Shown one piece after another: positions 8,090-27,398 of a DNA stretch of 64,000 bases (the first letter of the stretch is position 1; each line of letters starts with the position of its first letter). Source of the stretch: Bacteroidales bacterium (lineage in GTDB: Bacteria > Bacteroidota > Bacteroidia > Bacteroidales > UBA12077); assembly GCA_963665525.1 (NCBI GenBank), contig OY762280.1:3597410-3661409 (forward strand), read 5' to 3'. The notes under the pieces are model-generated. The model did not search any database and had not been told where the DNA came from. It saw only the letters and a program-made list of their open reading frames with translations. The position numbers were made by a program, and so were the translations under genes.

Positions 8090-8093
8090 GTCT

Positions 8094-8100: not shown

Positions 8101-8137
8101 CAAATGATATCTGCTCTTTAACGATTATTAATTTAAT

Positions 8138-9217
8138 ATGAAAGATTTAAAGACAACCAATTCGCTTTTACTAATCATTGTAATACCACTGATTTTTTAT
8201 TTACTAAAGATCTTATCTTTTATTTTTATTCCTCTCATATTGTCAATGTTTATCGCATTGTTATTTCTGCCAATAATGCGTTGGTTTAAAAGAAAAAAAT
8301 TCCCCAAATGGTTAAGTATTTTAATTATAATTCTATTAATCATAGGTTCAATAAAAGCTGGTGGTGAATTAATACGTTTATCAAGCAAAGAAATTCTTTC
8401 TGCTGATAATACCTTTTTTAAAAAAGCCGAAATCAAAATAAATGATGTGATTTTATCTGTTGAGCATTTCTTTGGACTGGAGCGGGTTGAAGGAGAAAAG
8501 GTGCTTAATCACTACATTAATCAAGACAATATTATGGTCAATGTAAAATATGCTTTAACTTTTATTCGAAGTACATTATCCATTGTTTTAATGACAGCTT
8601 TCTTTGTTATTTTACTGCTAGCCGGCTCCGTTGATTTTCAAAAGTTACTTAACCAAACTCTTATAAAAGCCAAATACTCTTCGATGAAAGCATTTTTTAA
8701 AATAGAAAAAGATATCATCAAGTTTGTGAAAGTTAAATTTATAATCAGCCTGTTTACTGGTATTGGATTCAGTTTATCGTGCGTAATTTTCGGAGTTAGC
8801 TTTCCAATTTTCTGGGGCTTATTTGCCTTTGTTGTAAATTTCATTCAGATGATTGGATCGGTAATATCTATTATATTATTGGCATTATTTGCCTTTGTTG
8901 AACTGGATCCTACCGGAACTCTCCTCCTGTTTATAATGGTAATTATTGCTATACAAGTATTAATGGGAAGTGTTCTTGAACCAATTTTTATGGGAAAAAC
9001 GTTCTCTGTAAATGTAGTTACCATATTAATTATGTTAATGCTATGGGGATATATATGGGGCATCCCCGGGTTAATTATCTCTGTCCCAATGACAGTTATT
9101 ATTAAAATTATTTTGGAACAGTTCCCAAAGACAAAAATAATTGCCGACTTCTTATCCGGTAAAGATCCTAAAGTGCCGTTATTAATCAATAAGAATCTGA
9201 ACGATAAAAATAATTAA
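8138..9217 (+). CDS. AI-2E family (PerM/YdiK-like) transporter
   Basis: 359-aa polytopic membrane protein with about 8 TM segments. Topology and length are typical of the AI-2E/UPF0118 family. Confidence 0.65.
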   Translation: MKDLKTTNSLLLIIVIPLIFYLLKILSFIFIPLILSMFIALLFLPIMRWFKRKKFPKWLSILIIILLIIGSIKAGGELIRLSSKEILSADNTFFKKAEIKINDVILSVEHFFGLERVEGEKVLNHYINQDNIMVNVKYALTFIRSTLSIVLMTAFFVILLLAGSVDFQKLLNQTLIKAKYSSMKAFFKIEKDIIKFVKVKFIISLFTGIGFSLSCVIFGVSFPIFWGLFAFVVNFIQMIGSVISIILLALFAFVELDPTGTLLLFIMVIIAIQVLMGSVLEPIFMGKTFSVNVVTILIMLMLWGYIWGIPGLIISVPMTVIIKIILEQFPKTKIIADFLSGKDPKVPLLINKNLNDKNN

Positions 9218-14521: not shown

Positions 14522-14690
14522 ATAAATCCTCTTTTCTTCAGCTATATCAACAAAGATTAAACCTAAATAATAAATGCCAAATTTATGAAACATATCATTA
14601 GTAAAAGATTAATTTTTGATCTTTTTTATCCCATATTTATTTTTTAATTTAGTGAACTACAGGATCGACCAAAAATCTTATTTTATACCA

Positions 14691-17513
14691 ATGCGTAAAC
14701 CTATATTCTACTTTAGAAATAAAGAAATTAAAATTACTAACTTCTTTTTAACGCAAACTGTTGTAGTAATTAGTTCGATGTGTATTATTGCTGCTTTCTT
14801 TTGGATCAATGGTAAATATAAGAGCATGCAATCAGAACTAGACAGAGTTCAGGTTGAATATGTTCATTCACAGAAAGAACTTATTAAAAGAGAAACTCAA
14901 CATGCCATTAACGACATCAATTATTCAATCAAAAGAGCAGATCAGACCTTACGTAATAAAATAAAATTTCGCGTTTATCAGGCACATAGAATTGCATCCA
15001 ATATTTATAATGAAAATGTAGGTAAAAAGACTAATGCAGAAATTAAGAAACTTATTAAAGATGCTTTAAGACCTGTGGTTTACGACAACAAATATGAATA
15101 CATTTTTATTGCTTCATTAAACGGAACCGAAGTATTATTTCCCACATATCCAGAGTTGGAAGGTAAAAATGTGTATGACTATCAAGATGAATTAGGTCAT
15201 TATATCATGCAAGAAGAAATTAAAATTGTGACCACAAAAGGAGAAGGTTTTTCGGAGAGTCATTGGAGATATGCAGAAGAAGATACAATTACAGTTAAAA
15301 AGAAACTGTCTTATGTAAAACTTTTTCAACCTTTTAACTGGTATATTGGAACCGGCTGTTTTTACTACGATCATACAAAATCAATGAAAGATGAAATTTT
15401 AGCAAGTCTTTCAAATTATCGATATGGAAAAGAAGGCTATATTTTTGTTAACACCTATGATGGTGACGCACTCTTGATGAATGGTGAGATTGTGACTCAA
15501 AAAATGAATGCATGGGATTTAGAAGATGCTAATGGCATTAAAGTAATTCAAGAAGAAAGAAAAGCTGTTAAAAAAGCAGAAGGAGATTATATCTATTATT
15601 CCTGGAGAAGGCTTTCCGATTCTGTTATTATCCCAAAGATGTCGTTTATTAAAGGTATACCTGAATGGGAATGGATGGTTGGCACAGGAGTTTATTTAGA
15701 TGAAATCAATTCACACCTAAATTCCATTGAGACTGAACTAAAAAATAAAATAATTCGTGACATTAAATTTGTTGTTATTTTAAGTCTTGGAATATTTATA
15801 TTTCTATCATTAATAGCCATTTTTACCTCCAGAAAACTTAAGAAAAACATCTCCTTATTTATTCGGTTTTTCGAAACGGCAACTAAAAATTATAAACTCA
15901 TTGATAAATCTAAAATTGCATACTCAGAGTTTAATACTATTGCTGATTATGCTAATAAAATGATTACGAACTTAAAAGTTACTGAAACAAAGAAAAAGGA
16001 AGAACAAGCTCATTACAAAAAACTTTTTGATGAATCTATCGAAGCGATTGCTTTTGTTGATAAAGAAGAAAAAGTACAAAGAATTAATCAGGCTTTTACC
16101 AAGTTATTTGGATATACTATTGGTGATCTTAGAAATAAGAATCTCAATGATGTCATTGTTCCGAAAAAGTTTATTAAGGAAGCTTTAAATTATTCCAAGA
16201 ATTTTAAAGAAGGAACTTATGACGAAGTAGAAGCAATTCGCTATAATAAAGAACGTAAAAAAATTCATGTTGCCATAACGGGAGCACCCGTATTAGTTAA
16301 TAACCAAAACTTAGGAACATACATTGTTTACAGAAATATTACTAATCAAAAGATTTTTGAACAAGAATTATATACTGCCAAAGTAAAAGCCGAAGAATCT
16401 GATCGACTTAAATCTTCATTTTTAACAAATTTATCGCACGAAATAAGAACTCCTTTAAATGCTATTATAGGATTCTCAACGCTTTTAAATACAAAAGATA
16501 TTGGAGCTGAAGAACAAAAAGAATATTTGAAAATCCTTGAAAATAGTGGTAAATCATTGTTAGAAATTATCGATAATATTATTGACTTTTCGAAAATCGA
16601 ATCATCCACTTTAGTTATAAATAAAACCAATAATAATTTTAATGAATTATTAGATGAGATTCTTATAGATTATGTTGATTTTAAGAATAATATGAGTTTT
16701 GATAAAATCGATCTCAAACTAAAGAAAGAAGGTGAGCAAAATCATTTATTTGTATTTACAGACTTTAAAAGAATAAAGCAGGTATTTACAAATTTACTTG
16801 ATAATGCCTTTAAGTTTACTGAAAAAGGAGAAATATCGTTTGGATATCAAATTGAGAGTGACGATATTGTCTGTTTTGTAAAAGATACTGGTATTGGCAT
16901 AAATAAAGAAGAATTAAAATTTATTTTCGATCGATTTCGTCAGGTTGATGAATCCTCAACACGCAAATATGGTGGAACAGGTATTGGATTAGCTTTGTGT
17001 AAAAGTTTGATTGAATTGTTAGATGGTCGTATTTGGGTAGAATCCAATAAGAACGAAGGATCAACCTTTTACTTTACTATTCCACTTGCTGATCATGAAA
17101 ATGTTAAAAAGAAAAATCCGGAACAAAAAACGCTACAAGATTTTAACTGGTCTCATAAAAAAATTCTTATAGCCGAAGATGTTGAAACGAATTACAAACT
17201 ATTAGAAACAATCCTTTCAAGATCTAATGCTAAAATACTTTGGGCCAAAGACGGTAACGAAGTTGTTGAAATGGTTGAAATAAATACCGATATTGATCTT
17301 ATTTTAATGGATATTAATATGCCTATAATGAATGGCCATGAGGCTACCAAGATACTTAAAAGTAAAGGGCTAGAAATACCAATCATTGCACAAACAGCTT
17401 ATGCTACCGAAGAACAAAAAAATGAAATTCTTAGTATGGGATATGATGATTATGTTTTAAAACCCATAACATTCCAGGTGTTATTTCAAAAAGTATCTAA
17501 ATTTTTAGATTAA
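14691..17513 (+). CDS. Hybrid sensor histidine kinase/response regulator with a tandem single-Cache-type periplasmic domain (TM, 2x Cache, TM, PAS, HisKA, HATPase_c, REC)
   Basis: Two Cache-like repeats (YIFIASLNGTEVLFP...NWYIGTGCFY and GYIFVNTYDGDALLMNG...EWEWMVGTGVYLDEI). H-box LTNLSHEIRTPLNAIIG. DTGIGI and GGTGIGL motifs. Receiver ILIAEDVETNY...DLILMDINMPIMNG...LKP. The start is set at the ATG at 14691, because the track start at 14616 is a TTG. Confidence 0.88.
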   Translation: MRKPIFYFRNKEIKITNFFLTQTVVVISSMCIIAAFFWINGKYKSMQSELDRVQVEYVHSQKELIKRETQHAINDINYSIKRADQTLRNKIKFRVYQAHRIASNIYNENVGKKTNAEIKKLIKDALRPVVYDNKYEYIFIASLNGTEVLFPTYPELEGKNVYDYQDELGHYIMQEEIKIVTTKGEGFSESHWRYAEEDTITVKKKLSYVKLFQPFNWYIGTGCFYYDHTKSMKDEILASLSNYRYGKEGYIFVNTYDGDALLMNGEIVTQKMNAWDLEDANGIKVIQEERKAVKKAEGDYIYYSWRRLSDSVIIPKMSFIKGIPEWEWMVGTGVYLDEINSHLNSIETELKNKIIRDIKFVVILSLGIFIFLSLIAIFTSRKLKKNISLFIRFFETATKNYKLIDKSKIAYSEFNTIADYANKMITNLKVTETKKKEEQAHYKKLFDESIEAIAFVDKEEKVQRINQAFTKLFGYTIGDLRNKNLNDVIVPKKFIKEALNYSKNFKEGTYDEVEAIRYNKERKKIHVAITGAPVLVNNQNLGTYIVYRNITNQKIFEQELYTAKVKAEESDRLKSSFLTNLSHEIRTPLNAIIGFSTLLNTKDIGAEEQKEYLKILENSGKSLLEIIDNIIDFSKIESSTLVINKTNNNFNELLDEILIDYVDFKNNMSFDKIDLKLKKEGEQNHLFVFTDFKRIKQVFTNLLDNAFKFTEKGEISFGYQIESDDIVCFVKDTGIGINKEELKFIFDRFRQVDESSTRKYGGTGIGLALCKSLIELLDGRIWVESNKNEGSTFYFTIPLADHENVKKKNPEQKTLQDFNWSHKKILIAEDVETNYKLLETILSRSNAKILWAKDGNEVVEMVEINTDIDLILMDINMPIMNGHEATKILKSKGLEIPIIAQTAYATEEQKNEILSMGYDDYVLKPITFQVLFQKVSKFLD

Positions 17514-17537: not shown

Positions 17538-18260
17538 ATGCCTGAAAAAATTATTCGCGTTGATCGTATTGGGAATATTACTTTTCGTAAAAATAAAAGA
17601 TCAAAAAATGTAAGCATATCTATGCGACCTAACAAAGGAATCCTTGTCACTTTCCCTTGGTTTTTAACATACCAATTTGCCTTAAATGTTGTAGAAAAAA
17701 AGCGCTCTTGGATTCTTAATAACCTGCCAAAAATTAAACAGATAGAGAATAAAGCGACTATTTTTAATGAAAACATAAGTTTTAAGTCACGATCTAAACA
17801 TTTTCTTATTCAACAATCCGAAAGTGTAAAAAAAATTACAACAAGTGTCACCAGCAATCAGGTTGTTATAACTTATCCTCAGAATATCAACATTGAAACA
17901 CCAGAAAATCAAATCACAATAAAAAAAGCTATTGCTGAAGCTCTCCGGATCGAAGCCAAAAATTATTTACCTGGCAGAACATTAGAATTGGCTCAAAAAA
18001 ACGGATTTTCTTTTAATAAGATTTCCATTAAAAATACAAAAACTCTTTGGGGAAGTTGTTCTGTAAAAAACAATATCAATTTAAATCTACATTTAATTCG
18101 TTTGCCTGATTATTTAATTGATTATGTGATTATTCATGAACTTTGTCATACTATAGAAAAAAATCATGGCCAGCAATTCTGGAAACTTATGGACACTATT
18201 CTTGGCGATGCCAAAAAAATATCAAAACAACTTAAAGAGTATTCAATAGAACTTTATTAA
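17538..18260 (+). CDS. YgjP-like/DUF45 (M48-related) zinc metallopeptidase
   Basis: HExxH in YVIIHELCHTIEKNHGQQFW, plus KTLWGSCS, typical of the DUF45/YgjP family. Confidence 0.75.
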   Translation: MPEKIIRVDRIGNITFRKNKRSKNVSISMRPNKGILVTFPWFLTYQFALNVVEKKRSWILNNLPKIKQIENKATIFNENISFKSRSKHFLIQQSESVKKITTSVTSNQVVITYPQNINIETPENQITIKKAIAEALRIEAKNYLPGRTLELAQKNGFSFNKISIKNTKTLWGSCSVKNNINLNLHLIRLPDYLIDYVIIHELCHTIEKNHGQQFWKLMDTILGDAKKISKQLKEYSIELY

Positions 18261-18289: not shown

Positions 18290-18296
18290 TAATTTG
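18290..18296 (+). promoter_or_regulatory. Candidate -7 box (TAATTTG) upstream of the sensor-paralogue array
   Basis: TAnnTTTG match 55 nt upstream of the ATG at 18351. It overlaps the track's TTG start at 18294, which argues for 18351 as the true start. Confidence 0.35.
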
Positions 18297-18350
18297 ATTT
18301 TTTCTCAAATTAATGTAAGTTTAGAGGTTATTTTCAAGCAAAACAAGAGT

Positions 18351-20651
18351 ATGAAGATTAATGCAAAAATGTTGGTATATATCTTGTCGACATCAACACT
18401 CATTTTTATTGTTTCGATAGGATATATAACCACCAAGTCCAGACACATGGCTTTAGAAGAATCGCGTGAGGTTGCAAATCAAAATGCACATCAGTATGCT
18501 AACCTTATTAAATCAGAGTTAGCTTCGGATTTAAGCATTACCCAGACTTTAGCACAAGCCGGACAGGCATATCAAAAACTACCATGGAATGACTGGAATA
18601 AAATTTTCCTTGAACAACAATTGCATATTATAAACGAAAACCCTCATTATTTAGCCGTTGCAACAAGTTGGGAACTAGATCAAATTGATCCAACATGGGA
18701 TAAACCGTTTGGAAGATACTTAAATGGTTGGGTAAGAGATCATGATGGTCATATCAATCAGATTGAAACACAATTAAATACCGATGGTGATGATTTAACA
18801 GGAAATTATTATGCCATGAAATCTACCGGAATTTCTATGATTGTTGACCCCAAATTATGGTCGCCCACAGGAAAAGAAGAAGATTCGTACATCAATACAA
18901 ATATCTCAGTACCTATTAAGATTGGAAATACCTTTATTGGGTTAGCAGGAGTCGATGTTGATCTGCAAAGATTTCAGGATATTATTGTTAAGATACAACC
19001 ATTTAAAGATAGCTATGCTTTCTTAGTTTCAAACGACGGTACTTTCGTAGCCCACCCCGATAGAAAACTCATGGGTAAACTCATTCGTGAAGAAATGCCC
19101 GAATTAAATAATAAGTACGATATAGTAAATCAAATTCAGGCTGGCGCCAATTTTTCTTTCACACATACTAATACCAGTAAGCAAGATAATTTTTATGTTT
19201 TTGCTCCTTTAAAAATCGAAAACATTGAAACTCCTTGGTCACTAGCTATTGTTGTACCAAATAAAGTGATTACATCGAAAGCTTCAAATATTCTATACAA
19301 AGCATTATTAGTTAGTTTTATTGGTCTGTTGTTGTTAACAATCGTTATCTGGTATATTGCAAGAAACATAACAAGTCCGATTATTCGAGTAACCGAAATA
19401 CTTAAAAGTCTGGCAAAAGGTCAAATTAACAAATCTTTAATGATGAAGGTAGACTCCAAAGATGAAGTTGGAGAAATGACCGCAGCTTTAAATACTTCAA
19501 TCGAAGGATTAAATGAAAAAGCTGAGTTTGCAAATCAAATCGGGACAGGTAAAGTTGATTGTGAATTAAACTTATTAAGTAATGAAGATCATTTGGGGCA
19601 ATCATTAATTAATATGCGTAATAGTTTGTTAAAAGCAAGATCAGAAGAAGAAAAACGCAAAGAAGAAGATGGTAAACGTAGATGGATTAATGAAGGTCTA
19701 GCAAAATTTGCTGAGATTCTAAGAAAAAATAATGATGAGATTAAAATCCTGGCAAATGATGTTATCAAAAACCTGGTGAACTATCTTAATGCAAATCAAG
19801 GAGGATTATTTATCTTAAACGAAGAAGAAAAATCGATTGTTATGTATGATCTTTTAGCTGCTTTTGCATACGATCGGGAAAAACATCTTAAGAAACAAAT
19901 TGAGTTGGGAGAAGGTCTGGTAGGAACATGTGCTGCAGAAAAAAACACCATTTATCTCACTGAAATTCCTGAAGATTATATGCAAATTACTTCCGGTTTA
20001 GGAGATGCTAATCCTAAAAGCTTATTGCTGGTGCCATTAAAAACAGAAAATGATATTTTAGGTATTATCGAAATTGCATCATTTCATAAAATCAAAAAAC
20101 ATGAAATTGAATTTACAGAAATGGTTGCTCAAAGTATTGCCTCAACACTTAAAGCTGTGAGAATAAATACAACTACCTCGCAACTCTTAGAACAATCTCA
20201 GCAACAAGCCGAAGAAATGGCAGCACAAGAAGAAGAAATGCGTCAAAACATGGAAGAACTCCAAGCAACTCAAGAAGAATCAACAAGAAAAGGTGAAGAG
20301 TTTAGTGGCATTCTGAATAGTATTGACCAATTTCTTATCAAAGCTGAATTCAATTTAAATTTTGAACTTATAAATGCCAATGGATTGTTCTTAAGTAAGT
20401 TTAAATATAAAATGAATGAAATTGTTGGTAAAGAAGCCGAAGAGTTTGTAGTTGAAAAAGATTTAACAAAATTCCAAAAAATGATCAATACAGTTTTATC
20501 GGGAAATGCACAAAATGAGATAACAAATCTAAAAAATAAAGATGGTGATGAGTTAAAACTAATTACATCATTTACACCTGTATATATTGATGAAACTTTT
20601 GAAAAAATCTTATTCTTGGCAGTAGATATTAGTCAATATAAAAACTCTTAA
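18351..20651 (+). CDS. Sensor paralogue A: TM, periplasmic Cache-like domain, TM, HAMP, GAF, acidic coiled coil, PAS; no recognisable output domain
   Basis: TM1 LVYILSTSTLIFIVSIGYI. The periplasmic region of about 300 aa contains SWELDQIDPTWDKPFGRY and IGLAGVDVDLQRFQ. TM2 ALLVSFIGLLLLTIVIWYIA. HAMP ITSPIIRVTEILKSLAKG...EVGEMTAALNTSIEGLN. GAF NEGLAKFAEILR...ANQGGLFIL...GEGLVGTCA...LGIIEIASF. Coiled coil QQQAEEMAAQEEEMRQNMEELQATQEE. The C-terminal 120 aa or so are PAS-like. Confidence 0.8.
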   Translation: MKINAKMLVYILSTSTLIFIVSIGYITTKSRHMALEESREVANQNAHQYANLIKSELASDLSITQTLAQAGQAYQKLPWNDWNKIFLEQQLHIINENPHYLAVATSWELDQIDPTWDKPFGRYLNGWVRDHDGHINQIETQLNTDGDDLTGNYYAMKSTGISMIVDPKLWSPTGKEEDSYINTNISVPIKIGNTFIGLAGVDVDLQRFQDIIVKIQPFKDSYAFLVSNDGTFVAHPDRKLMGKLIREEMPELNNKYDIVNQIQAGANFSFTHTNTSKQDNFYVFAPLKIENIETPWSLAIVVPNKVITSKASNILYKALLVSFIGLLLLTIVIWYIARNITSPIIRVTEILKSLAKGQINKSLMMKVDSKDEVGEMTAALNTSIEGLNEKAEFANQIGTGKVDCELNLLSNEDHLGQSLINMRNSLLKARSEEEKRKEEDGKRRWINEGLAKFAEILRKNNDEIKILANDVIKNLVNYLNANQGGLFILNEEEKSIVMYDLLAAFAYDREKHLKKQIELGEGLVGTCAAEKNTIYLTEIPEDYMQITSGLGDANPKSLLLVPLKTENDILGIIEIASFHKIKKHEIEFTEMVAQSIASTLKAVRINTTTSQLLEQSQQQAEEMAAQEEEMRQNMEELQATQEESTRKGEEFSGILNSIDQFLIKAEFNLNFELINANGLFLSKFKYKMNEIVGKEAEEFVVEKDLTKFQKMINTVLSGNAQNEITNLKNKDGDELKLITSFTPVYIDETFEKILFLAVDISQYKNS
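20199..20279 (+). other. Invariant coiled-coil motif QQQAEEMAAQEEEMRQNMEELQATQEE (paralogue A)
   Basis: Read directly from the translation. The same 27-aa block recurs in B, C and D with synonymous codon differences. Confidence 0.9.
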
Positions 20652-20704: not shown

Positions 20705-23017
20705 ATGAAACTTAGGCTCGGTTTAAAAAATAAAATGCAACTGTACTTAATATCCTTGTCAGTTGCCATTTATGTTATTGCAATTGGCTATATCAGTATT
20801 AGTGCAAAAAAGACCACTTATCAGGATTCTGTTGAACTCGTAAATGCAAATGCCGAAAAATATGCGTATAAAATGCAATCAGATCTTAATGAATATATGG
20901 CCGTTGTAAGAACGTTGTCATCTGCATTTACCATATATCCTGAAATGTCGAGAGATGAATGGGAGCCTTTGTTTATTAAAATGTATGACAAAATTTATCG
21001 AAATAATCCTGCTTTTTATAAACTTTGGGATAGCTGGGAGCTCAATAAAGTGGATGAGAACTGGTATCAAGCTACTGGAAGAATTGCAAATGTTTTTTCC
21101 CGGGTCAACGGAACGGTTTTACAAAAACAGGATATTAGAAGCCTGGATGGTGATAACCCTACTTATGCTAATATAAAATCGAAAGCTAAGGAAATGGTTC
21201 TACCAATATATTTTGATGTGTTTACAGATGAAGGTGAAACCTCAAAATTAATGACCAGTCTTGTTACTCCCATTTTAATTGATCATGAGTATCATGGAAT
21301 GGTTGGTATAGATTTAATCCTAGAACGTTTTCAAAAAATGGTTGGGAATATAAATCTATCTCAGTTTCCTGGAAGTTATGCTGTGTTAATCACTGAGGAA
21401 GGAAAATATGCAAGTCATCCTCAATCAGAATTATTAAATCAAATGGCAGACTTTTCTTTAAAATCTCAGGAAGATTTTAATATACTTGAAGAAATTGAGC
21501 CCGGAGAAAGTTTCAACATTCTTTCTGTTGACAGTATAGGAAAAACACATTATGTTTCTTTTGCCCCAATCAATATAGGAAAAACAAATACTCCCTGGTT
21601 TTTAGCAGTTTCTGTACCTCTAAACTCCATCATGGCTCAAGCCGACAGAAACTTTATGATCTCCTTGATTGTAGGTATTATTGGCATCATGTTACTTAGC
21701 TTTGCCATATATATCATTACAAAAAATATCTCAAACCCTATACAAAGAATAACCGAGTTTTTAAAAGAGTTAGCTAAAGGAAAAACAGATAGTAAACTGA
21801 ATATTGATGTTACATCGGGTGATGAAATTGAAGAGATGACATTAGCACTAAAAACTTCAATTAATGGATTAAATTTAAAAACAGAATTTGCAAATAATAT
21901 TGGTAAAGGAAACTTAGAATATGAATTTAATTTACTTAGCGATGAAGACAAACTGGGACAGGCCCTAGTTAACATGCGCAATAGCCTTAGGCAGGCTCAG
22001 GATGATGAAAGTGAACGTAAGATCCAAGACGAAAAACGAAGATGGACCAATGAAGGACTTGCAAAGTTTGCTGACATCTTGCGCCAAAATAATGATAATC
22101 TGGATACGCTTTCCAATGAGATTATAAAGAACCTGGTCTATTATCTAGAAGCTAACCAGGGTGGGTTATTCATTCTCGATGATGAAGATAAAAATAATAT
22201 ATTTCTTGATTTAGTTTCTGCATTTGCCTTTGATAGAAAAAAATATCTCGAAAAAAGAATCGCATATGGAGATGGAATTGTAGGTTCCGTTGCTATAGAA
22301 AAACTAACCACTTATATTGAAGATCTACCTAACGAATATATCAAGATTATATCTGGTTTAGGAGGCTCTAACCCTAACGCACTGTTAGTAGTTCCTCTTA
22401 CATTGGAAGAAAAAGTTTATGGTGTTTTAGAAATTGCATCATTCAATAAATTTGAAAAATATCAAATTGAATTTGTTGAAAAAGTGGCTCGTGATATTGC
22501 AGCGACCTTATCATCTGTAAAAATTAGTATTCAAACCAATGAGCTACTGGAAAAATTCCAACAACAATCAGAAGAAATGGCAGCTCAGGAAGAAGAAATG
22601 CGCCAAAACATGGAAGAACTGCAAGCAACCCAAGAAGAAGCTGGGCGCAAAAATGCTGAAATGGAAAGTTTCCTTAGTGCCTTAGATAAGTCCAGTTGTA
22701 CTGTTGAGTACAACCCTGAAGGGTTTATAACTAAAGTTAACGACAACTATTTAAACCTTCTAAACCTAAACCTCTCTGAAGTTCTGGGAGTACATCATTC
22801 TGATAAGATGAAATTTACAACAAAGCAAAAAGAAGAATACGATAAATTTTGGGATGATTTAAGAAACGGAATCACAAAGAAAGAAAAAACAAGTTTTGTG
22901 GTTAGAGGCAAAGAAATAATTCTTTATGAGGTTTATACTCCTATTAAAGACGAAAATGACATCGTTAAAAGAATCCTTAAAATATCAAATAATATTAGTG
23001 ATTTTGAAGAATTATAA
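20705..23017 (+). CDS. Sensor paralogue B (same architecture)
   Basis: Collinear with A, C and D. WDSWELNKVDENW, HAMP NISNPIQRITEFLKELAKG...EIEEMTLALKTSINGLN, GAF RRWTNEGLAKFADILRQNNDN...ANQGGLFIL, the coiled-coil motif, and a C-terminal PAS (CTVEYNPEGFITKVNDNYLNLL...EYDKFWDDLRNG). Confidence 0.8.
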   Translation: MKLRLGLKNKMQLYLISLSVAIYVIAIGYISISAKKTTYQDSVELVNANAEKYAYKMQSDLNEYMAVVRTLSSAFTIYPEMSRDEWEPLFIKMYDKIYRNNPAFYKLWDSWELNKVDENWYQATGRIANVFSRVNGTVLQKQDIRSLDGDNPTYANIKSKAKEMVLPIYFDVFTDEGETSKLMTSLVTPILIDHEYHGMVGIDLILERFQKMVGNINLSQFPGSYAVLITEEGKYASHPQSELLNQMADFSLKSQEDFNILEEIEPGESFNILSVDSIGKTHYVSFAPINIGKTNTPWFLAVSVPLNSIMAQADRNFMISLIVGIIGIMLLSFAIYIITKNISNPIQRITEFLKELAKGKTDSKLNIDVTSGDEIEEMTLALKTSINGLNLKTEFANNIGKGNLEYEFNLLSDEDKLGQALVNMRNSLRQAQDDESERKIQDEKRRWTNEGLAKFADILRQNNDNLDTLSNEIIKNLVYYLEANQGGLFILDDEDKNNIFLDLVSAFAFDRKKYLEKRIAYGDGIVGSVAIEKLTTYIEDLPNEYIKIISGLGGSNPNALLVVPLTLEEKVYGVLEIASFNKFEKYQIEFVEKVARDIAATLSSVKISIQTNELLEKFQQQSEEMAAQEEEMRQNMEELQATQEEAGRKNAEMESFLSALDKSSCTVEYNPEGFITKVNDNYLNLLNLNLSEVLGVHHSDKMKFTTKQKEEYDKFWDDLRNGITKKEKTSFVVRGKEIILYEVYTPIKDENDIVKRILKISNNISDFEEL
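22559..22639 (+). other. Invariant coiled-coil motif QQQSEEMAAQEEEMRQNMEELQATQEE (paralogue B)
   Basis: Read directly from the translation. There is one substitution relative to A, C and D (A to S). Confidence 0.9.
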
Positions 23018-23029: not shown

Positions 23030-25336
23030 ATGAAAATAAAACTTAAAATCCAGCAAAAAATACAGTTATTTATTATCTCAACCTCGATTATTATTTATGT
23101 AATAGCTGTAGGTTATATTAGTCTAAATGCAAAAAAAATTGCATACACTGATGCCACAAACATTACGGATCGTTACGTACATGAAGCTGCCAATAAGGTA
23201 AAAGCCAATCTTGATGCAGATCTTACACTTGTAAAAACCTTGGCTGAAGCATTTCATACCTACAAATATCTTCCGAACGAAGAATGGCAAGATCTTTATT
23301 CAAAAATGTATCATGAAGTGTTCAAGAAAAACCCACATATTTATAGTCTCTGGGATAGCTGGGAACTCAATGCAATTGATCCTGAATGGGATCGACCAAC
23401 CGGACGATTTGTAATTATTTACTGGAGAGAAAATGGAGAAATAAAATTTAACTTCGAACAACGAAGCTTAGATGGAGATCCCGAATTGTATGCTGCTATT
23501 AAGACAAAGAAAATACCTTCCATTTGGGAACCATATGAAGATGTTTTTACTGAAAACAAAGCCGATAAGTTTTTAATGACCAGCCTCAATGCTCCAATCC
23601 TTGAAAACGGAAATTATGTTGGAATAGTAGCTATAGATATTACATTAGATCGATTTCAGGAACTTGTTGAAGAGATCAAGCCTTTTAAAGGAAGCTATGC
23701 ATATTTAGTATCAAACAAAGGGGCCATTGCAGGTCATCCTGATAAAGAACTTCTTAATGTAAACATTCAGGATCTTATTCCAGAGGATAATAAAAAGTAT
23801 GATATTATTAAAACTATTAGCCAGGGAAAAAGCTTAAGCTACACTAGTATTGATGAGAATGGAGTGGAAAATTATGTTTCTTATGCTCCAATATTTGTAG
23901 GTAAAACAGGAACCCCATGGTCTATTGCCATATCAGTTCCTGTGAAAACAATCATGGCTAAAGCAAATAGAAACTTTACAATATCTATGATTGTTGGCAT
24001 TATTGGCATTTTATTAATTGTTCTGGTAATAGCTTTTATAAGCAAAAATATCACGAATCCTCTTTCTAAAATAACAAGCTTGCTCAATAAGCTCTCAAAA
24101 GGACACATTGATGAGCAAATGAGGATCAAAATTGAAACAGGAGATGAAATTGAAGAAATGACAGATGCTCTGAATAATTCAATTGATGGTTTAAATAAAA
24201 AAGTAGATTTTGCTAATCATATTGGAAAAGGAGCATTAAATCATGATTTTGAATTATTAAGTGATGAAGATGTTTTAGGTAAATCCCTACTTAACATGCG
24301 CAATAGTTTGATGGAAGCCGAAGAAGAGGATAAGAAACGAAAAATTGAAGACGAAAAACGACGTTGGACTAATGAAGGATTAGCAAAATTTGGAGATATT
24401 TTGCGTCAAAACAATGACAACCTGGAAGAACTAGCAACTGAAATAATCATGAATTTAGTTGCTTATTTAGAAGCCAATCAGGGTGGTATATTTATTTTAA
24501 ATGATGATGATAAACAAAACATCCATTTTAATCTTTTGTCGGCTTACGCTTACGATAGAAGAAAATACATGAATAAGCAAATTCAGTTAGGTGAAGGATT
24601 GGTTGGGAATTGTGCCATTGAGAAAAAAACTGTATTTATGACGGATATTCCACAAGACTATATGGAGATTACTTCCGGTCTTGGAGGATCGAACCCGAAT
24701 AGCTTACTTATAGTGCCACTTAAACTCGAAGATGATGTTCTTGGAATTCTCGAAATTGCATCTTTTAATATATTTGAGAAACATGAAATAGAATTTGTTG
24801 AAAAACTTGCAGAAAGTATCGCATCAACATTATCTTCTGTACGAATTAACATTAGAACATCTGAACTACTAGAACGCTCACAGCAACAAGCTGAAGAAAT
24901 GGCTGCACAAGAAGAAGAGATGCGTCAAAATATGGAGGAGTTGCAAGCAACGCAAGAAGAGTCTACACGTAAAAGTGCCGAAATGGAAGGACTCGTTCAA
25001 GCTCTTAATATTTCAAGTTATGTAATTGAATACGATCTGGACGGAAATATTCAAAATGTAAATGATAATTATCTTTCATTATTAGGATTATCTAAAGAAC
25101 AGGTAATCGGCACTCATCATTCCGGTAATATGGATTTTACGGATCAACAAAAAGGTGAGTATGAAAAGTTCTGGAGAGAATTAAGAGCTGGAAATGTGAA
25201 AAAAGAAACCACAAAAGTGAAAATAAATGATAAGGAACTTATTTTTGCCGAAACATATACACCAATCAGAAATGCCGACGGAGATGTTTATAAAATCCTG
25301 AAGATTTCAAATAACATCACCGACTTTCATGATTAA
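23030..25336 (+). CDS. Sensor paralogue C (same architecture)
   Basis: Collinear with B and D. The start is 12 nt after the stop of B. C-terminal PAS ALNISSYVIEYDLDGNIQNVNDNYLSLLGLSKEQVIGTHHS...EYEKFWRELRAGNVKKE...YTPIRNADGDVYKILKISNNITDF. Confidence 0.8.
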   Translation: MKIKLKIQQKIQLFIISTSIIIYVIAVGYISLNAKKIAYTDATNITDRYVHEAANKVKANLDADLTLVKTLAEAFHTYKYLPNEEWQDLYSKMYHEVFKKNPHIYSLWDSWELNAIDPEWDRPTGRFVIIYWRENGEIKFNFEQRSLDGDPELYAAIKTKKIPSIWEPYEDVFTENKADKFLMTSLNAPILENGNYVGIVAIDITLDRFQELVEEIKPFKGSYAYLVSNKGAIAGHPDKELLNVNIQDLIPEDNKKYDIIKTISQGKSLSYTSIDENGVENYVSYAPIFVGKTGTPWSIAISVPVKTIMAKANRNFTISMIVGIIGILLIVLVIAFISKNITNPLSKITSLLNKLSKGHIDEQMRIKIETGDEIEEMTDALNNSIDGLNKKVDFANHIGKGALNHDFELLSDEDVLGKSLLNMRNSLMEAEEEDKKRKIEDEKRRWTNEGLAKFGDILRQNNDNLEELATEIIMNLVAYLEANQGGIFILNDDDKQNIHFNLLSAYAYDRRKYMNKQIQLGEGLVGNCAIEKKTVFMTDIPQDYMEITSGLGGSNPNSLLIVPLKLEDDVLGILEIASFNIFEKHEIEFVEKLAESIASTLSSVRINIRTSELLERSQQQAEEMAAQEEEMRQNMEELQATQEESTRKSAEMEGLVQALNISSYVIEYDLDGNIQNVNDNYLSLLGLSKEQVIGTHHSGNMDFTDQQKGEYEKFWRELRAGNVKKETTKVKINDKELIFAETYTPIRNADGDVYKILKISNNITDFHD
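24881..24961 (+). other. Invariant coiled-coil motif QQQAEEMAAQEEEMRQNMEELQATQEE (paralogue C)
   Basis: Read directly from the translation. Confidence 0.9.
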
Positions 25337-25367: not shown

Positions 25368-27398
25368 ATGAAATTTAAACTTAAAATTCAACAAAAGATA
25401 CAGATGTTTATTATCTCGGCTTCCATTATAATATATATTGTAGCCCTTGGATACATAAGCTTACAGGCACGTAAAATGGCTTATAATGATGCCATAAATA
25501 TAACGGATCAATATGTTCAGAACTACGCAAAAGATATTGCAGATCAACTGAATTCTGATATGACTGTAGTGAAGACTTTATCCAATGCCTTTCTTATTTA
25601 TGAAACATTGCCAAAATCAGAATGGAAAAACCTTTTTAAAGAAATGTACTTAAAGGTTTATAGCCAATATCCGCATTTTAATTCTCTGTGGGATAGCTGG
25701 GAATTAAGTGCCATCGATTCAACATGGACAAAATCTCATGGTCGTTATGTAATGATGGTTGCCAGAGATATCTCCGGAAAGATAATTACTGATTCTAGCT
25801 ATAGAAGTATTGAAAAAGAATCTCAGATTTATGACAAGATTATTAAGAAAAGAAGAGTTCCTTCTATCTGGGAACCATATCTTGATAACTACGCTGTTGG
25901 AGAAAATGAAAGAAGTCTAATGACTACCTTAAACTCCCCGATAATGAATGATAATAAATATATTGGAATTGTTGGGATTGATATTAGATTAGACAATTTC
26001 CAACAAATTGTTTCAGAAATTAACCCTTTTGAAGGTAGTTATGCATACATGATTTCATACGGAGGACTTATTGCAGGTCATCCTAACAGGGAATATCTTC
26101 AGGTGAACCTTGAAGATGTATTACCTTATGACTTTGAAACGTATAATATTCTTAGAAATATTCAGTCTGGTAAACCATTTAGTTATACCAGCATAAATGA
26201 GGAGGGTTTAGAATTATATTATTCTTATGCCCCTATCATTGTTAAAGGAACGAATACGCCTTGGTCAATTGCAATCTCTGTTCCTGTTAAAACCATTATG
26301 GCAGCAGCAAATAAAAGCTTTCGCATTTCGCTCATTGTTGGAATACTAGGAATACTTCTTTTAGTATTTGTTATTGCTATCATTAGTAAAAACATTACGA
26401 ATCCATTAACTAAAATAACTAAACTATTAAAGTTGCTAGCCAAAGGACATATTGATGAGAAAATGCGAATTAAAATACACACCGGCGACGAAATTGAGGA
26501 AATGTCAGATGCTCTTAACATGTCAATTAATGGATTAAATAAAAAAGTTGAGTTCGCCAACCACATAGGTAAAGGAGAACTAAATCATGAATTTAACTTA
26601 CTAAGCGATGAAGATATTCTTGGAAAATCATTAATAGATATGAGGACCAGTTTAATTAAAGCTGATGAAGAAGATGAAAAACGAAAGATCGAAGATGAAA
26701 AACGCAGATGGACCAATGAAGGATTAGCACAATTTGCAGATATCTTACGCCAGAATAATGATAACCTGGAAGTTTTAGCTACTGAAATTATTATGAACCT
26801 GGTTAATTATTTAAAAGCTAATCAAGGTGGCTTATTCATTTTAAACGATGATGACAAACAAAATATTCACTTTAATCTACTCTCTGCCTTTGCATACGAT
26901 CGTAGAAAATTTATGCAAAAACATATTCAAATTGGTGAAGGATTAATAGGTACTTGTGCTATTGAAAAGAAAACCATTTTTATGACTGATGTGCCTCAAG
27001 ATTATATGGAGATAACATCCGGATTAGGTGGTGCAAATCCTGGTAGTTTGCTTATTGTTCCATTAAAACTCGAAGATGAGGTTTTAGGTGTAATAGAAAT
27101 TGCATCCTTCAATAAATTTGAAAAACATGAAATAGAATTTGTTGAAAAATTGGCTGAAAGCATTGGATCCACATTATCTTCTGTTCGAATAAATATAAGA
27201 ACGAATGAGTTACTTGAGAAATCACAACAACAAGCTGAAGAAATGGCTGCTCAGGAAGAAGAAATGCGTCAAAACATGGAAGAATTACAAGCTACACAAG
27301 AAGAAATGAAGCGAAAAGAAGATCATTTGAAAGAAATTATTAATAAACTAAAAGAAAAAGGCAACTTTAGTGAAGAAGATTTAGATTTTACTTATTAA
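25368..27398 (+). CDS. Sensor paralogue D (TM, Cache-like domain, TM, HAMP, GAF, coiled coil; lacks the C-terminal PAS)
   Basis: Very similar to C through the coiled coil (for example MKFKLKIQQKIQMFIISASIIIYIVALGYISL versus MKIKLKIQQKIQLFIISTSIIIYVIAVGYISL). It ends 31 aa after ELQATQEE with MKRKEDHLKEIINKLKEKGNFSEEDLDFTY. Confidence 0.8.
   Translation: MKFKLKIQQKIQMFIISASIIIYIVALGYISLQARKMAYNDAINITDQYVQNYAKDIADQLNSDMTVVKTLSNAFLIYETLPKSEWKNLFKEMYLKVYSQYPHFNSLWDSWELSAIDSTWTKSHGRYVMMVARDISGKIITDSSYRSIEKESQIYDKIIKKRRVPSIWEPYLDNYAVGENERSLMTTLNSPIMNDNKYIGIVGIDIRLDNFQQIVSEINPFEGSYAYMISYGGLIAGHPNREYLQVNLEDVLPYDFETYNILRNIQSGKPFSYTSINEEGLELYYSYAPIIVKGTNTPWSIAISVPVKTIMAAANKSFRISLIVGILGILLLVFVIAIISKNITNPLTKITKLLKLLAKGHIDEKMRIKIHTGDEIEEMSDALNMSINGLNKKVEFANHIGKGELNHEFNLLSDEDILGKSLIDMRTSLIKADEEDEKRKIEDEKRRWTNEGLAQFADILRQNNDNLEVLATEIIMNLVNYLKANQGGLFILNDDDKQNIHFNLLSAFAYDRRKFMQKHIQIGEGLIGTCAIEKKTIFMTDVPQDYMEITSGLGGANPGSLLIVPLKLEDEVLGVIEIASFNKFEKHEIEFVEKLAESIGSTLSSVRINIRTNELLEKSQQQAEEMAAQEEEMRQNMEELQATQEEMKRKEDHLKEIINKLKEKGNFSEEDLDFTY
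27225..27305 (+). other. Invariant coiled-coil motif QQQAEEMAAQEEEMRQNMEELQATQEE (paralogue D)
   Basis: Read directly from the translation. Confidence 0.9.

What the first reader, a model, noticed from the sequence alone, without database searches (positions are those of the whole stretch)
20199..20279. Invariant 27-aa acidic heptad motif (QQQAEEMAAQEEEMRQNMEELQATQEE) that resembles a chemoreceptor methylation helix
The block is identical in paralogues A, C and D and has one A-to-S change in B. The other copies are at 22559-22639, 24881-24961 and 27225-27305. The DNA encoding it differs at many third-codon positions, so the peptide itself is under strong constraint.

Its E/Q-pair pattern and the segment EEMRQNMEELQATQEE are reminiscent of the first methylation helix of E. 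coli Tsr/Tar, which I recall as ...ALEETAASMEQLTATVKQN... with Glx-Glx sites spaced 7 apart. It also resembles the EELQSTNEEL-type coiled coil that I recall from CheB-CheR fusion/PAS kinases.

One speculative reading is that this helix is a site of reversible Glu/Gln modification, or a docking helix. That would make these proteins chemoreceptor derivatives that kept adaptation-like elements but lost the kinase-control tip.
Basis: inference. Interest (0 to 1): 0.6.

Follow-up and report, generated by a model that had tools for sequence, protein, structure and literature searches.

The report
Conserved post-GAF signalling helix, likely methylated
The invariant 27-residue acidic block is the core of a coiled-coil helix joining the GAF and PAS domains in a large Bacteroidota family of sensor proteins that have no output domain. 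It is not a chemoreceptor remnant, but relatives sit in operons with CheR/CheB enzymes, so it may be a reversible methylation site.

Summary
**Observation:** confirmed. The 27-aa block is identical in paralogues A, C and D and has one A→S change in B. It is the most conserved stretch of these proteins, and its codons have diverged, so selection acts on the peptide.

**What it is:**
- It lies in one continuous 79-residue helix linking GAF to PAS, in dCache–TM–HAMP–GAF–helix–PAS proteins with no output domain.
- The core `QEEE[ML]RQN[ML]EELxATQEE` is almost invariant in 373 copies. It recurs up to 7 times per protein at spacings that are multiples of 7.

**Chemoreceptor descent:** not supported. 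There is no MCPsignal domain, and the profile scores no better against Tsr/Tar than against shuffles. The helix is homologous to the post-GAF "S-helix" of RsbK-type kinases, which CheR-like RsbM methylates in *Bacillus cereus*.

**Modification idea:** it gains real but indirect support.
- Family members sit in a conserved operon: CheR, motif sensor, CheR, receiver-less CheB, GAF protein, SiaA-like PP2C with the same helix, SiaB, SiaC. None contains a chemoreceptor.
- In *Perlabentimonas gracilis*, an orphan receptor 51% identical to protein C shares a contig with that operon.

**Limits:** the window has no CheR/CheB, its genome could not be searched, and methylation is unproven.

**Verdict:** new variant of a known kind.

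The parts
18294..20651 (+). Paralogue A: dCache_1-TM-HAMP-GAF-helix-PAS sensor with no output domain. The mechanical ORF starts at TTG 18294; the real start is more likely ATG 18351 (MKINAKM...), which aligns with the MK.KLK starts of B-D.
   Evidence: ORF list; Pfam domains; paralogue alignment.
20705..23017 (+). Paralogue B, same architecture (770 aa).
23030..25336 (+). Paralogue C (768 aa), used as the reference. Pfam places dCache_1 at residues ~149-288, HAMP at 336-389, GAF at 464-601 and PAS at 663-765.
   Evidence: AlphaFold2 model, mean pLDDT 80.7.
25368..27398 (+). Paralogue D (676 aa). It has the same N-terminal modules but no PAS domain; the protein ends 31 residues after the motif.
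20199..20279 (+). Motif copy in A: QQQAEEMAAQEEEMRQNMEELQATQEE.
22559..22639 (+). Motif copy in B, with the A4->S change.
24881..24961 (+). Motif copy in C (residues 618-644).
27225..27305 (+). Motif copy in D.
24779..25015 (+). The whole predicted continuous helix of C (residues 584-662). It runs from the last GAF helix, through the conserved lead-in (INIRTSELLERS) and the motif, to the PAS N-cap.
   Evidence: AlphaFold2 secondary structure H584-662. Family conservation extends from about 12 residues before the motif to about 8 after it.
24935..24952 (+). EELQAT in C, the best match to the classical CheR site pattern Glx-Glx-x-x-Ala-Ser/Thr and a candidate methyl-accepting site. The equivalent sites are A 20253-20270, B 22613-22630 and D 27279-27296.
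   Evidence: The pattern [EQ][EQ]xx[AS][ST] is present at this position in 77% of 373 family copies. That it is a real site is inference; the consensus comes from established knowledge of chemoreceptor methylation sites.
14616..17513 (+). Upstream hybrid histidine kinase (dCache_2-PAS-HisKA-HATPase-REC), a conserved syntenic neighbour of the paralogue array and a possible partner.
   Evidence: Pfam. Synteny in L002/L003 and in L007, L040, L065, L081.
17538..18260 (+). YgjP-like (PF01863) HEXXH protein between the kinase and paralogue A, also syntenic.

Best explanation
**What it is (well supported).** The 27-aa block is the core of a ~45-residue conserved signalling helix that directly follows the GAF domain. 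It is the Bacteroidota form of the 'S-helix' of RsbK-type HAMP-GAF sensors. In the window's proteins it lies in the middle of one continuous 79-residue helix that connects GAF to PAS, and presumably forms a parallel coiled coil in a dimer. The heptad has a strict hydrophobic d stripe (M7, M14, L21). The a positions are mostly polar and invariant (E11, Q25). Four Glu-Glu pairs lie on the exposed b/c face.

**How it most likely works (inferred).** The Glu pairs are methyl-accepting sites for a dedicated CheR/CheR/CheB enzyme set encoded elsewhere in the genome; where a Gln is encoded instead, it would be a deamidation site. In relatives that set is encoded in an operon with a SiaA-like PP2C phosphatase carrying the same helix, a SiaB kinase and the phosphoprotein SiaC. 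Reversible methylation would tune the helix, giving adaptation or gain control, and so set the output of a SiaABC-type threonine-phosphorylation switch.

The many scattered receptors, including the four tandem ones here, have no output domain of their own. They would keep the helix invariant because all of them must be read by the same enzymes or the same downstream partner, much as scattered chemoreceptor genes share one cheRB pair.
For: **Anatomy**
- Pfam architecture of the four paralogues.
- Single helix H584-662 in the AlphaFold2 model.
- Heptad register.

**Modularity and conservation**
- An exhaustive search found 2297 hits.
- The core is 95-99% conserved at most positions in 373 copies, including outward-facing b, c and f positions.
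- It recurs 2-7 times per protein, every ~155-170 aa as helix+PAS units, or bare at 28, 35, 42, 63 or 70 aa, all multiples of 7.
- Nine carriers up to 1989 aa have no output domain; P0242 and P0265 are only GAF plus tandem motifs.
- Paralogue D ends just after the helix, so the helix cannot be only a linker.

**Homology to RsbK-type helices**
- tblastn runs through the GAF domain into Deinococcus and Azospirillum hybrid kinases.
- Their post-GAF helix reads RTETLLRQSQSMAQELQSQQEELRQTNEEL.
- The motif HMM hits exactly there at 9.4 bits, against a shuffle maximum of 6.5.
- The D. deserti kinase is followed directly by CheR.

**Precedent**
- RsbM methylates the RsbK S-helix (CHASE3-HAMP-GAF-S-helix-HK-REC) and controls a PP2C partner switch (PMC4574943; PMC12848376).

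**Genomic link**
- 8 of 80 motif loci have CheR and a receiver-less CheB flanking the motif gene.
- Starting instead from CheB, all 80 metagenome loci show the same operon and none has an MCP.
- In 11 of 31 complete cases the only motif carrier is the PP2C phosphatase.
- The CheB catalytic Ser/His/Asp positions are invariant.
- DUF6272 is a SiaB-family kinase: 175 bits against a cutoff of 85, and it matches PDB 6KKO.

**Same family**
- The window's proteins are 34-37% identical over full length to the L064 operon-adjacent sensor, and 38-55% over HAMP-GAF-helix-PAS to the others.

**Co-occurrence**
- In P. gracilis the operon and an orphan receptor lie on one 170-kb contig. The orphan is 51% identical to C, with the motif 26/27 identical.

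**Site pattern**
- EELQAT fits Glx-Glx-x-x-Ala-Thr in 77% of copies.
- E/Q interchange occurs at the second Glu of the outer pairs in receptors (E65/Q17 and E74/Q6) and before the stripe residue in the phosphatase helix (E64/Q31).
Against: - No methylation has been shown for any member.
- The window's own locus has no CheR or CheB. The rest of its genome could not be searched.
- 72 of 80 motif loci have no CheR/CheB within 10 kb.
- Genome-level co-occurrence was verified in only one genome.
- The 80 CheB loci are close relatives (at least 69% identity), so they represent one operon family and are not independent confirmations.
- The central Glu pairs never vary to Gln.
- The 10-residue Thermotoga-type methylation consensus is not matched.
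- There is no sequence homology to MCP methylation helices.
- The predicted geometry is a parallel two-helix coil, not the antiparallel four-helix bundle that CheR and CheB are known to act on.
- CheR/CheB in the operon could target another protein, for example the small TM-GAF protein.
- The B. cereus RsbK helix sequence and its methylated residues could not be retrieved for direct comparison.
Confidence: 0.5

Rival explanations
1. A purely mechanical signalling helix. The block is a parallel coiled-coil transmission element between GAF and PAS (and between PAS domains) that is never covalently modified. Its extreme conservation would reflect the demands of a bistable, marginally stable coil with polar core residues and in-register dimerisation.
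For: - It is a continuous helix between two sensory domains.
- It has strict heptad phase, and copy spacings are multiples of 7.
- Invariant polar residues sit at core a positions, as is typical of switchable signalling helices.
- Most loci have no CheR/CheB nearby.
Against: - Conservation is as strong on the exposed b, c and f positions as in the core.
- The helix is the C-terminal element in D-type proteins, and it is the only element after GAF in P0242 and P0265, so there is nothing downstream to transmit to.
- This rival does not explain the conserved MCP-less operon with two CheR genes and CheB.
Confidence: 0.27
2. A docking or hetero-oligomerisation helix. The invariant helix would let paralogous receptors pair with one another or with the SiaA-like phosphatase, whose N-terminal GAF-helix-PAS module is homologous. 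Alternatively it binds another common partner. Receptors without an output domain would signal by joining mixed coiled coils.
For: - The helix is identical in four tandem paralogues that are otherwise 40-68% identical.
- The phosphatase's GAF-helix-PAS module is 34-39% identical to the paralogues and carries a motif variant.
- The proteins have no output domain.
- Tandem arrays of the motif could act as multivalent platforms.
Against: - No interaction data exist.
- The highly acidic b/c faces disfavour simple self-association of many copies.
- This rival does not by itself explain why CheR and CheB are in the operon.
- It is compatible with the best explanation, and may complement it rather than exclude it.
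Confidence: 0.17
3. One reading: the proteins are degenerate chemoreceptors, and the block is a retained MCP methylation helix.
For: - MEELQAT versus Tar MEQLTAT is 5/7 identical.
- Glx pairs are spaced 7 apart.
- JGI pipelines often name these proteins 'methyl-accepting chemotaxis protein'.
Against: - There is no MCPsignal domain.
- BLAST or HMM similarity to Tsr, Tar, Trg or Tap is no better than to shuffles.
- No chemoreceptor appears in the PDB profile search.
- The helix is contiguous with a GAF domain and homologous to RsbK-type kinases.
Confidence: 0.03
4. An artefact: a low-complexity E/Q-rich stretch, or identity maintained by recent gene conversion among the tandem paralogues.
For: - The composition is E/Q/M-rich.
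- The genes lie in tandem.
Against: - Codons have diverged inside the motif.
- The same core is near-invariant in 373 copies from hundreds of unrelated contigs.
Confidence: 0.01

Closest known systems
Bacillus cereus RsbK S-helix and its CheR-type methyltransferase RsbM (PMC4574943; Chen et al. 2012, PMID 22640257, not held)
   Same: - The helix sits directly after HAMP-GAF.
- It is paired with a CheR-family methyltransferase gene in relatives.
- The downstream pathway uses a PP2C phosphatase and partner switching.
- The helix of RsbK-like kinases (D. deserti, A. oryzae) aligns with the motif.
   Different: - RsbK has HisKA-HATPase-REC after the helix. The window's proteins have only PAS, or nothing.
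- RsbM is an orphan methyltransferase with no dedicated esterase. The Bacteroidota operon has two CheR genes plus a receiver-less CheB, so reversible modification is possible.
- The output is SiaA/SiaB/SiaC-like rather than RsbY/RsbV/RsbW/sigma-B.
- The B. cereus helix sequence itself was not available for comparison.
Methylation (adaptation) helices of chemoreceptors Tar/Tsr
   Same: - Heptad-spaced Glx-Glx pairs lie just before a core residue.
- One site fits Glx-Glx-x-x-Ala-Thr.
- Receptor genes are scattered, with a single CheR/CheB locus.
- Some positions show E/Q interchange.
   Different: - No detectable sequence homology.
- No MCPsignal hairpin tip.
- No CheA/CheW coupling in the typical operon.
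- A predicted parallel two-helix coil rather than an antiparallel four-helix bundle.
Signalling helix (S-helix) of Anantharaman, Balaji and Aravind 2006 (from my own knowledge; cited as ref. 50 in PMC4574943)
   Same: A ~40-50-residue heptad-periodic helix between an N-terminal sensory domain and a downstream domain.
   Different: - Sequence conservation here is far higher, and on all faces.
- The helix is reused as a tandem module.
- In some proteins it is C-terminal, with no downstream domain.
Pseudomonas aeruginosa SiaABCD pathway (PMC8457831; PMC7647112)
   Same: The relatives' operon encodes a SiaA-like PP2C, a SiaB-family kinase and SiaC.
   Different: - No SiaD diguanylate cyclase; a TerB-ABC transporter follows instead.
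- The PP2C is fused to GAF-helix-PAS-PAS rather than to a HAMP sensor.
- CheR, CheR and CheB are added.
- None of these genes lies in the window.
   Same: It would be the same xEEL-x-x-[ST] heptad type.
   Different: Not verified. No such fusion was present in any DNA fetched, and the motif strings are absent from the paper library.

Membership tests
Methyl-accepting chemotaxis proteins (MCP) | Cytoplasmic MCPsignal hairpin domain (PF00015) with the kinase-control tip | tested here: not met
   No MCPsignal hit at E<=0.1 in any paralogue. tblastn with Tar, Tsr, Tap and Trg finds nothing in the window.
Methyl-accepting chemotaxis proteins (MCP) | Sequence homology of the helix to MCP methylation helices | tested here: not met
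   The motif HMM scores -1 to -2 bits on the four E. coli MCPs, and 15-31% of shuffles do as well or better. The PDB profile search finds no MCP at E<=10.
Methyl-accepting chemotaxis proteins (MCP) | Methylation-site consensus Glx-Glx-x-x-Ala-Ser/Thr at heptad spacing | tested here: inconclusive
   One of the four Glu pairs (EELQAT) fits, in 77% of 373 copies. AEEMAAQ fits partly. The 10-residue Thermotoga-type consensus is not matched.
Methyl-accepting chemotaxis proteins (MCP) | CheR/CheB present, and CheA/CheW coupling | tested here: inconclusive
Relatives have CheR and CheB but no CheA/CheW in the typical operon. Only L068 and L082 have a classical che cluster next door.
RsbK-type HAMP-GAF-S-helix sensors with a CheR-type methyltransferase | HAMP followed by GAF followed directly by a long heptad helix | tested here: met
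   Pfam finds HAMP and GAF. Helix H584-662 starts within the last GAF helix.
RsbK-type HAMP-GAF-S-helix sensors with a CheR-type methyltransferase | Helix homologous to that of RsbK-like kinases | tested here: met
   - tblastn to D. deserti and Azospirillum kinases through the GAF domain gives E about 1e-29.
- The shared pattern is RT..LL..SQ..A.E[LM]..Q.EE[LM]RQ..EEL.
- The HMM scores 9.4 bits at that helix, against a shuffle maximum of 6.5.
- B. cereus RsbK itself was not available.
RsbK-type HAMP-GAF-S-helix sensors with a CheR-type methyltransferase | Histidine-kinase and receiver output after the helix | tested here: not met
   No HisKA, HATPase or REC in any paralogue, nor in nine other carriers.
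RsbK-type HAMP-GAF-S-helix sensors with a CheR-type methyltransferase | Adjacent CheR-family methyltransferase gene | tested here: not met
   Not met in the window. Met for homologous sensors in 8 of 80 genome loci and in the 80 CheB-anchored loci, and elsewhere on the same contig in P. gracilis.
RsbK-type HAMP-GAF-S-helix sensors with a CheR-type methyltransferase | Demonstrated glutamate methylation of the helix | not testable with these tools
   Needs mass spectrometry or labelled-SAM assays.
SiaABC-type partner-switching pathway | PP2C (SiaA), SiaB kinase and SiaC phosphoprotein encoded together | tested here: not met
   - No SiaB or SiaC in the window.
- An unrelated GAF-like-PP2C gene lies at 11027-12262 on the other strand.
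- The feature is met in the relatives' operon.

The most novel reading that the evidence does not exclude
Bacteroidota, a phylum without flagellar chemotaxis, may run a widespread sensory-adaptation network that needs neither chemoreceptors nor CheA. A CheR/CheR/CheB set would reversibly methylate a GAF-linked acidic helix. That helix is carried by dozens of scattered transmembrane receptors with no output domain, and by a SiaA-like PP2C phosphatase. Methylation would tune a SiaB/SiaC phosphorylation switch. The window's four tandem receptors would be inputs to that network, and the invariant 27-mer would be its shared methyl-accepting and recognition element.
Probability: 0.4. Interest if true: 0.85.

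Novelty: new variant of a known kind. Interest (0 to 1): 0.62.

Why it matters
CheR/CheB-type reversible glutamate methylation is the textbook adaptation mechanism of chemotaxis. Outside chemoreceptors there is essentially one studied case, RsbK/RsbM, and it has no esterase.

If the helix described here is a CheR/CheB substrate, three things follow:
- Covalent adaptation has been coupled to a different receptor scaffold (HAMP-GAF-helix-PAS) and a different output (a PP2C/SiaB/SiaC switch).
- The system would be very common in Bacteroidales and Marinilabiliales: thousands of stand-alone CheB genes and thousands of motif proteins.
- It would give a function to a large class of multi-domain "sensors" with no output domain that pipelines mislabel as chemotaxis proteins.

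The motif also gives experimenters a precise peptide to look for by mass spectrometry.

If it is not modified, the motif is still a sharply defined, reusable signalling-helix module that neither Pfam nor NCBIfam models.

Tried and rejected
- **PDB with the single 62-aa motif region.** phmmer found only generic coiled coils.
- **Motif strings in the literature.** EELQSTNEEL, QTNEELEE, EEMRQNMEEL and similar strings gave zero papers.
- **Locating the source genome.** The look-up of encoding contigs for protein C and for the ~100%-identical P0121 (on a 4.6-Mb contig) found nothing on record. The listing of cluster members gave no accession. The source genome therefore could not be searched for CheR/CheB.
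- **Contig-length matching for CheB.** I looked for a CheB hit on a contig of 4,597,882 or 563,224 bp among the top 120 CheB hits and found none. The family is far too large for that list to be informative, with 7970 of 8000 scored candidates significant. This is not evidence of absence.
- **Short-query homologue search.** It returned only fragments of 203 aa or less, which says nothing about architecture.
- **Original RsbM/RsbK paper.** It is not held. The 2015, 2024 and 2026 papers give neither the helix sequence nor the methylated residues.
- **Papers linking CheR/CheB with SiaC, PP2C, partner switching or GAF.** Nothing describes this operon.
- **NCBIfam.** No model covers the helix.
- **CheB-CheR fusion kinases.** None was present in the ~2.1 Mb of fetched DNA.
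- **Gene conversion and low complexity as explanations.** Considered and rejected.
- **The window's own PP2C gene (11027-12262) as a partner.** Considered, then set aside. Its linker lacks the motif, it is on the other strand behind housekeeping genes, and it is not adjacent in the syntenic MAG.
- **Correction.** In passing I first said the window has no SpoIIE/PP2C gene, because BLAST with the operon phosphatase missed it. One search corrected this.
Full report
**1.

The four stated coordinate ranges translate to QQQAEEMAAQEEEMRQNMEELQATQEE in A, C and D, and to the same with A→S in B. They lie in four tandem + strand genes of 676-785 aa. About 15-16 of the 81 nucleotide columns differ among the copies, and all but the A/S codon are synonymous.

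In the alignment of the four proteins, this is the most conserved 27-column window: 26 invariant columns against 7.7 ± 5.6 on average. At identical residues, codon identity inside the motif is 0.48-0.78, against 0.44-0.49 in the rest of the genes. The DNA has therefore diverged about as much as elsewhere. Selection on the peptide, not gene conversion, keeps the block invariant.

**2. Anatomy**

Pfam gives dCache_1, a transmembrane segment, HAMP, GAF, the motif and then PAS in A-C. D stops 31 residues after the motif. No MCPsignal, HisKA, HATPase, GGDEF or other output domain is present.

An AlphaFold2 model of C built on 43 homologues (mean pLDDT 80.7) places the motif (residues 618-644) in the middle of one continuous helix, residues 584-662. 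This helix begins as the last GAF helix and ends as the N-cap of PAS.

Across 373 copies, hydrophobic residues occupy a strict 7-residue stripe, corresponding to M7, M14 and L21 of the 27-mer and the next two turns. They are hydrophobic in 75-100% of copies. The other core position is hydrophobic only at M18; elsewhere it holds invariant E11 and Q25. All four Glu-Glu pairs fall at positions b and c, just before the stripe residue.

**3. The motif is a widely reused module**

An exhaustive HMMER search with 62 residues around the motif found 2297 proteins at E≤1e-3 and 352 at E≤1e-10.

- In the best 147 hits retrieved, the core [AS]QEEE[ML]RQN[ML]EE[LM]xATQEE occurs up to 7 times per protein.
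- Copies recur every ~155-170 residues, as helix+PAS units. They also occur in bare tandem arrays spaced 28, 35, 42, 63 or 70 residues apart, all multiples of seven.
- Most core positions are 95-99% conserved, including outward-facing ones, while the flanks vary.
- Copies follow either a GAF domain (IN.RT..LLE.SQQQ...) or the DIT end of a PAS domain.
- Nine representative carriers, up to 1989 aa, have only GAF, HAMP and PAS domains and no output domain. P0242 and P0265 are just GAF plus four to six motif copies.
- Neither Pfam nor NCBIfam models the helix, and the motif strings are absent from the paper library.
- A scan of species-representative genomes found at least 554 confirmed occurrences. 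The best 80 are almost all Bacteroidales, Marinilabiliales, Rikenellaceae and other Bacteroidota.
- 63 of the 80 loci are single scattered genes of the window's type. The window's arrangement (hybrid kinase, YgjP-like gene, tandem paralogues, TPR, AlbA) recurs in close relatives.

**4. It is not a chemoreceptor remnant**

I used real E. coli sequences fetched from NC_000913.

- Tar, Tsr, Tap and Trg do not align to the motif at E≤10. The window contains no MCP signalling domain, CheR, CheB catalytic domain or CheW.
- A 97-sequence motif profile finds only designed helical bundles in the PDB at E≤10.
- The profile scores -1 to -2 bits against the four receptors, and 15-31% of composition-matched shuffles do as well or better.
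That is a short pattern, not homology.

**5. What it is homologous to**

tblastn of the linker-GAF-motif region against annotated plasmids hits HAMP-GAF hybrid kinases of Azospirillum, Deinococcus, Streptomyces and 110 Rhizobium plasmids, through the GAF domain and up to the motif.

- Directly after GAF these read MRTETLLRQSQSMAQELQSQQEELRQTNEELEQKA in D. deserti and LKQSQRLTTELQSQQEELKTTNERLEQQ in A. oryzae.
- They share RT..LL..SQ..A.E[LM]..Q.EE[LM]RQ..EEL with the window.
- The motif HMM hits exactly that helix at 9.4 bits in D. deserti. The 300 shuffles gave a mean of -7.1 and a maximum of 6.5. In A. oryzae it scores 4.4 bits, against a shuffle maximum of 3.6.
- The D. deserti protein is polyHAMP-GAF-helix-HisKA-HATPase-REC×3 and is followed immediately by a CheR gene.
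- This is the layout of B. cereus RsbK (CHASE3-HAMP-GAF-S-helix-HK-REC). Its S-helix is methylated by the CheR-type RsbM to hold a PP2C/partner-switching pathway off (PMC4574943).
- A genomic RsbK-CheR association, and 127 RsbK-like kinases in 10 phyla, are reported there and in PMC12848376.

**6. An unexpected genomic link to CheR/CheB**

In 8 of the 80 motif loci the motif gene is flanked by CheR-like and CheB-like genes. Pfam and NCBIfam identify a conserved operon:

- CheR.
- A sensor with GAF, motif and PAS.
- A second CheR.
- A CheB catalytic domain of ~186 aa with no receiver.
- A small TM-TM-coil-GAF protein.
- An 870-aa GAF-helix-PAS-PAS-PP2C protein whose phosphatase part matches SiaA.
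- DUF6272, which is a SiaB-family kinase (175 bits against a cutoff of 85; matches PDB 6KKO).
- SiaC.
- A TerB-ABC transporter.

The reciprocal test started from the CheB alignment, in which the positions equivalent to the catalytic Ser, His and Asp are invariant.

- It retrieved 80 metagenome loci, all with this same operon. None contains an MCP signalling domain.
- 31 loci have both CheR genes on the contig. In 20 the motif sensor lies between them. In 11 the two CheR genes abut, and the only motif-bearing protein is the phosphatase.
- The phosphatase's post-GAF helix has the consensus NQKTEKLLQESQQMT.EL.ENEE[E64/Q31]LRQNAEEMRATQEEL.
- This stand-alone CheB family is very large: 7970 of 8000 scored candidates have E≤1e-10, mostly from Bacteroidales.

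The window's proteins belong to the same family as the operon sensors. They are 34-37% identical over full length to the L064 sensor, and 38-55% over HAMP-GAF-helix-PAS to the others. The phosphatase's GAF-helix-PAS module is 34-39% identical to them.

In the cultured Perlabentimonas gracilis, one 170,095-bp contig carries the operon at about 11.5-24 kb. An orphan receptor lies at about 100 kb. The orphan is 51% identical to protein C over its full length, with the motif 26/27 identical.

**7. Site-level hints (weak)**

- EELQAT fits the classical CheR site pattern Glx-Glx-x-x-Ala-Ser/Thr in 77% of copies. The pattern itself is established knowledge of Tar/Tsr sites and is visible in the real Tar sequence.
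- E/Q interchange, typical of methyl-accepting positions, is seen at the second Glu of the outer pairs (E65/Q17 and E74/Q6). The first Glu varies towards Asp instead. The phosphatase helix shows E64/Q31 immediately before the stripe residue.
- The central pairs are invariant Glu, and the longer Thermotoga-type consensus is not matched.

**8. Interpretation**

*Shown:*
- The block is the core of a GAF-linked heptad helix.
- It is homologous to RsbK-type S-helices.
- It is a reusable module in a very large Bacteroidota family of sensors with no output domain.
- Family members are embedded in MCP-less CheR/CheR/CheB-SiaABC operons.

*Inferred:*
- The Glu pairs are substrates of those enzymes.
- The scattered receptors, including the window's four, feed the same pathway. 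The helix would stay invariant because all of them must be recognised by shared enzymes or a shared partner.

*Main rivals:*
- An unmodified mechanical helix. This is weakened by all-face conservation and by proteins in which the helix is terminal.
- A docking or hetero-oligomerisation helix, which is compatible with the main model.

*Limits:*
- No modification has been demonstrated.
- The window has no CheR/CheB, and its genome could not be searched.
- 72 of 80 motif loci lack nearby CheR/CheB.
- Co-occurrence was verified in one genome only.
- The CheB-anchored loci are close relatives of one another.
- The B. cereus RsbK helix itself could not be compared.

**9. Verdict**

The chemoreceptor-descent reading is rejected.

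This is a new variant of a known kind: RsbK/RsbM-type methylatable S-helices. Here the helix has lost the kinase, has gained a dedicated CheB, and is coupled to a SiaABC-type switch.

Noticed in passing
window 11027-12262 (-): A 411-aa GAF-like-PP2C (SpoIIE) phosphatase gene lies about 6 kb upstream of the paralogue array, on the other strand. Its linker (RLYKESLKQEALKKELELASKMQ) lacks the motif. BLAST with the operon phosphatase missed it; Pfam found it. It is not adjacent in the syntenic MAG L002.
   Followed up: partly
window 14616-17513 and 17538-18260 (+): A hybrid histidine kinase (dCache_2-PAS-HisKA-HATPase-REC; the ORF starts at TTG) and a YgjP-like HEXXH protein lie immediately before paralogue A. 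The same order (kinase, YgjP, tandem paralogues, TPR, AlbA) recurs in L002, L007, L040, L065 and L081, so they may work together with the receptors.
   Followed up: partly
window 18294-18351: The mechanical ORF of paralogue A starts at TTG 18294 and adds 19 residues with no counterpart in B-D. The ATG at 18351 (MKINAKM) aligns with the starts of the other three.
   Followed up: no
window 25368-27398: Paralogue D lacks the PAS domain and ends 31 residues after the motif. This short form (~676-702 aa) is itself conserved in many relatives (P0184-P0212), so it is not a truncation artefact.
   Followed up: partly
window 113-3397 and 57129-59963 (+): There are two further hybrid histidine kinases in the window: dCache_3-PAS×3-HisKA-HATPase-REC, and a 944-aa HisKA-HATPase-REC protein. 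The region is dense in sensory genes.
   Followed up: no
window 4802-8038 (+): A polyamine-type cluster: an arginine-decarboxylase-like gene, an agmatinase (passes the NCBIfam cutoff) and a deoxyhypusine/homospermidine-synthase-like gene.
   Followed up: no
L040 (Bacteroidales MAG GLR59); proteins P0242, P0265, P0317: Some family members carry bare tandem arrays of the motif. In L040, two paralogues of the syntenic cluster have 3 copies each; the copies lie 42 aa apart in one, and 70 and 42 aa apart in the other. P0242 has 6 copies 70 aa apart, P0265 has 4 copies 42 aa apart, and P0317 has 3 copies 28 aa apart. What a multivalent array does is unexplained.
   Followed up: partly
L164 2613-4289, L155 1236-3194, L147 2-1438: A variant of the CheB-SiaABC operon has no adjacent CheR genes. 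Upstream of CheB it carries a PAS-helix-HisKA-HATPase kinase. In L164 and L147 the pre-HisKA helix of that kinase reads TTNEEL[YC]A[TA]NEELYA[TI]NEEL, with heptads of the EExxA[TAI] type.
   Followed up: partly
L068 and L082 (Marinilabiliaceae JC017; Saccharicrinis sp.), 1-9000: In these two genomes a classical chemotaxis cluster (MCP, CheY, a CheA-sized gene, CheW×2, CheR, full-length CheB with receiver) lies directly upstream of the motif-sensor/CheR/CheB/SiaABC operon. Each locus thus has two separate CheR/CheB sets.
   Followed up: no
L132, L137, L138, L144, L145, L148, L149, L151, L153, L162, L126: In 11 of 31 complete operons the sensor gene between the two CheR genes is absent. The SiaA-like phosphatase is then the only protein with the helix.
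   Followed up: partly
hits P0003, P0012, P0036, P0153, P0161 and others: JGI's automatic annotation names many of these proteins 'methyl-accepting chemotaxis protein', although none has an MCPsignal domain. This is probably a propagated mislabel from the dCache/HAMP part.
   Followed up: partly
L013 ('Thiohalospira sp.' MAG), L022 (Chlorobiota MAG), P0228: A few carriers are labelled as non-Bacteroidota MAGs. This could be mis-binning or horizontal transfer. L013 also has a SiaC gene next to the receptor, and L049 and L086 have SiaC or SiaB next to theirs.
   Followed up: no
window 21637-21981 (-) and 26225-26566 (-): ORFs of 113-114 aa lie antisense inside paralogues B and D. They are low-complexity and have no support, so they are almost certainly not genes.
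   Followed up: no
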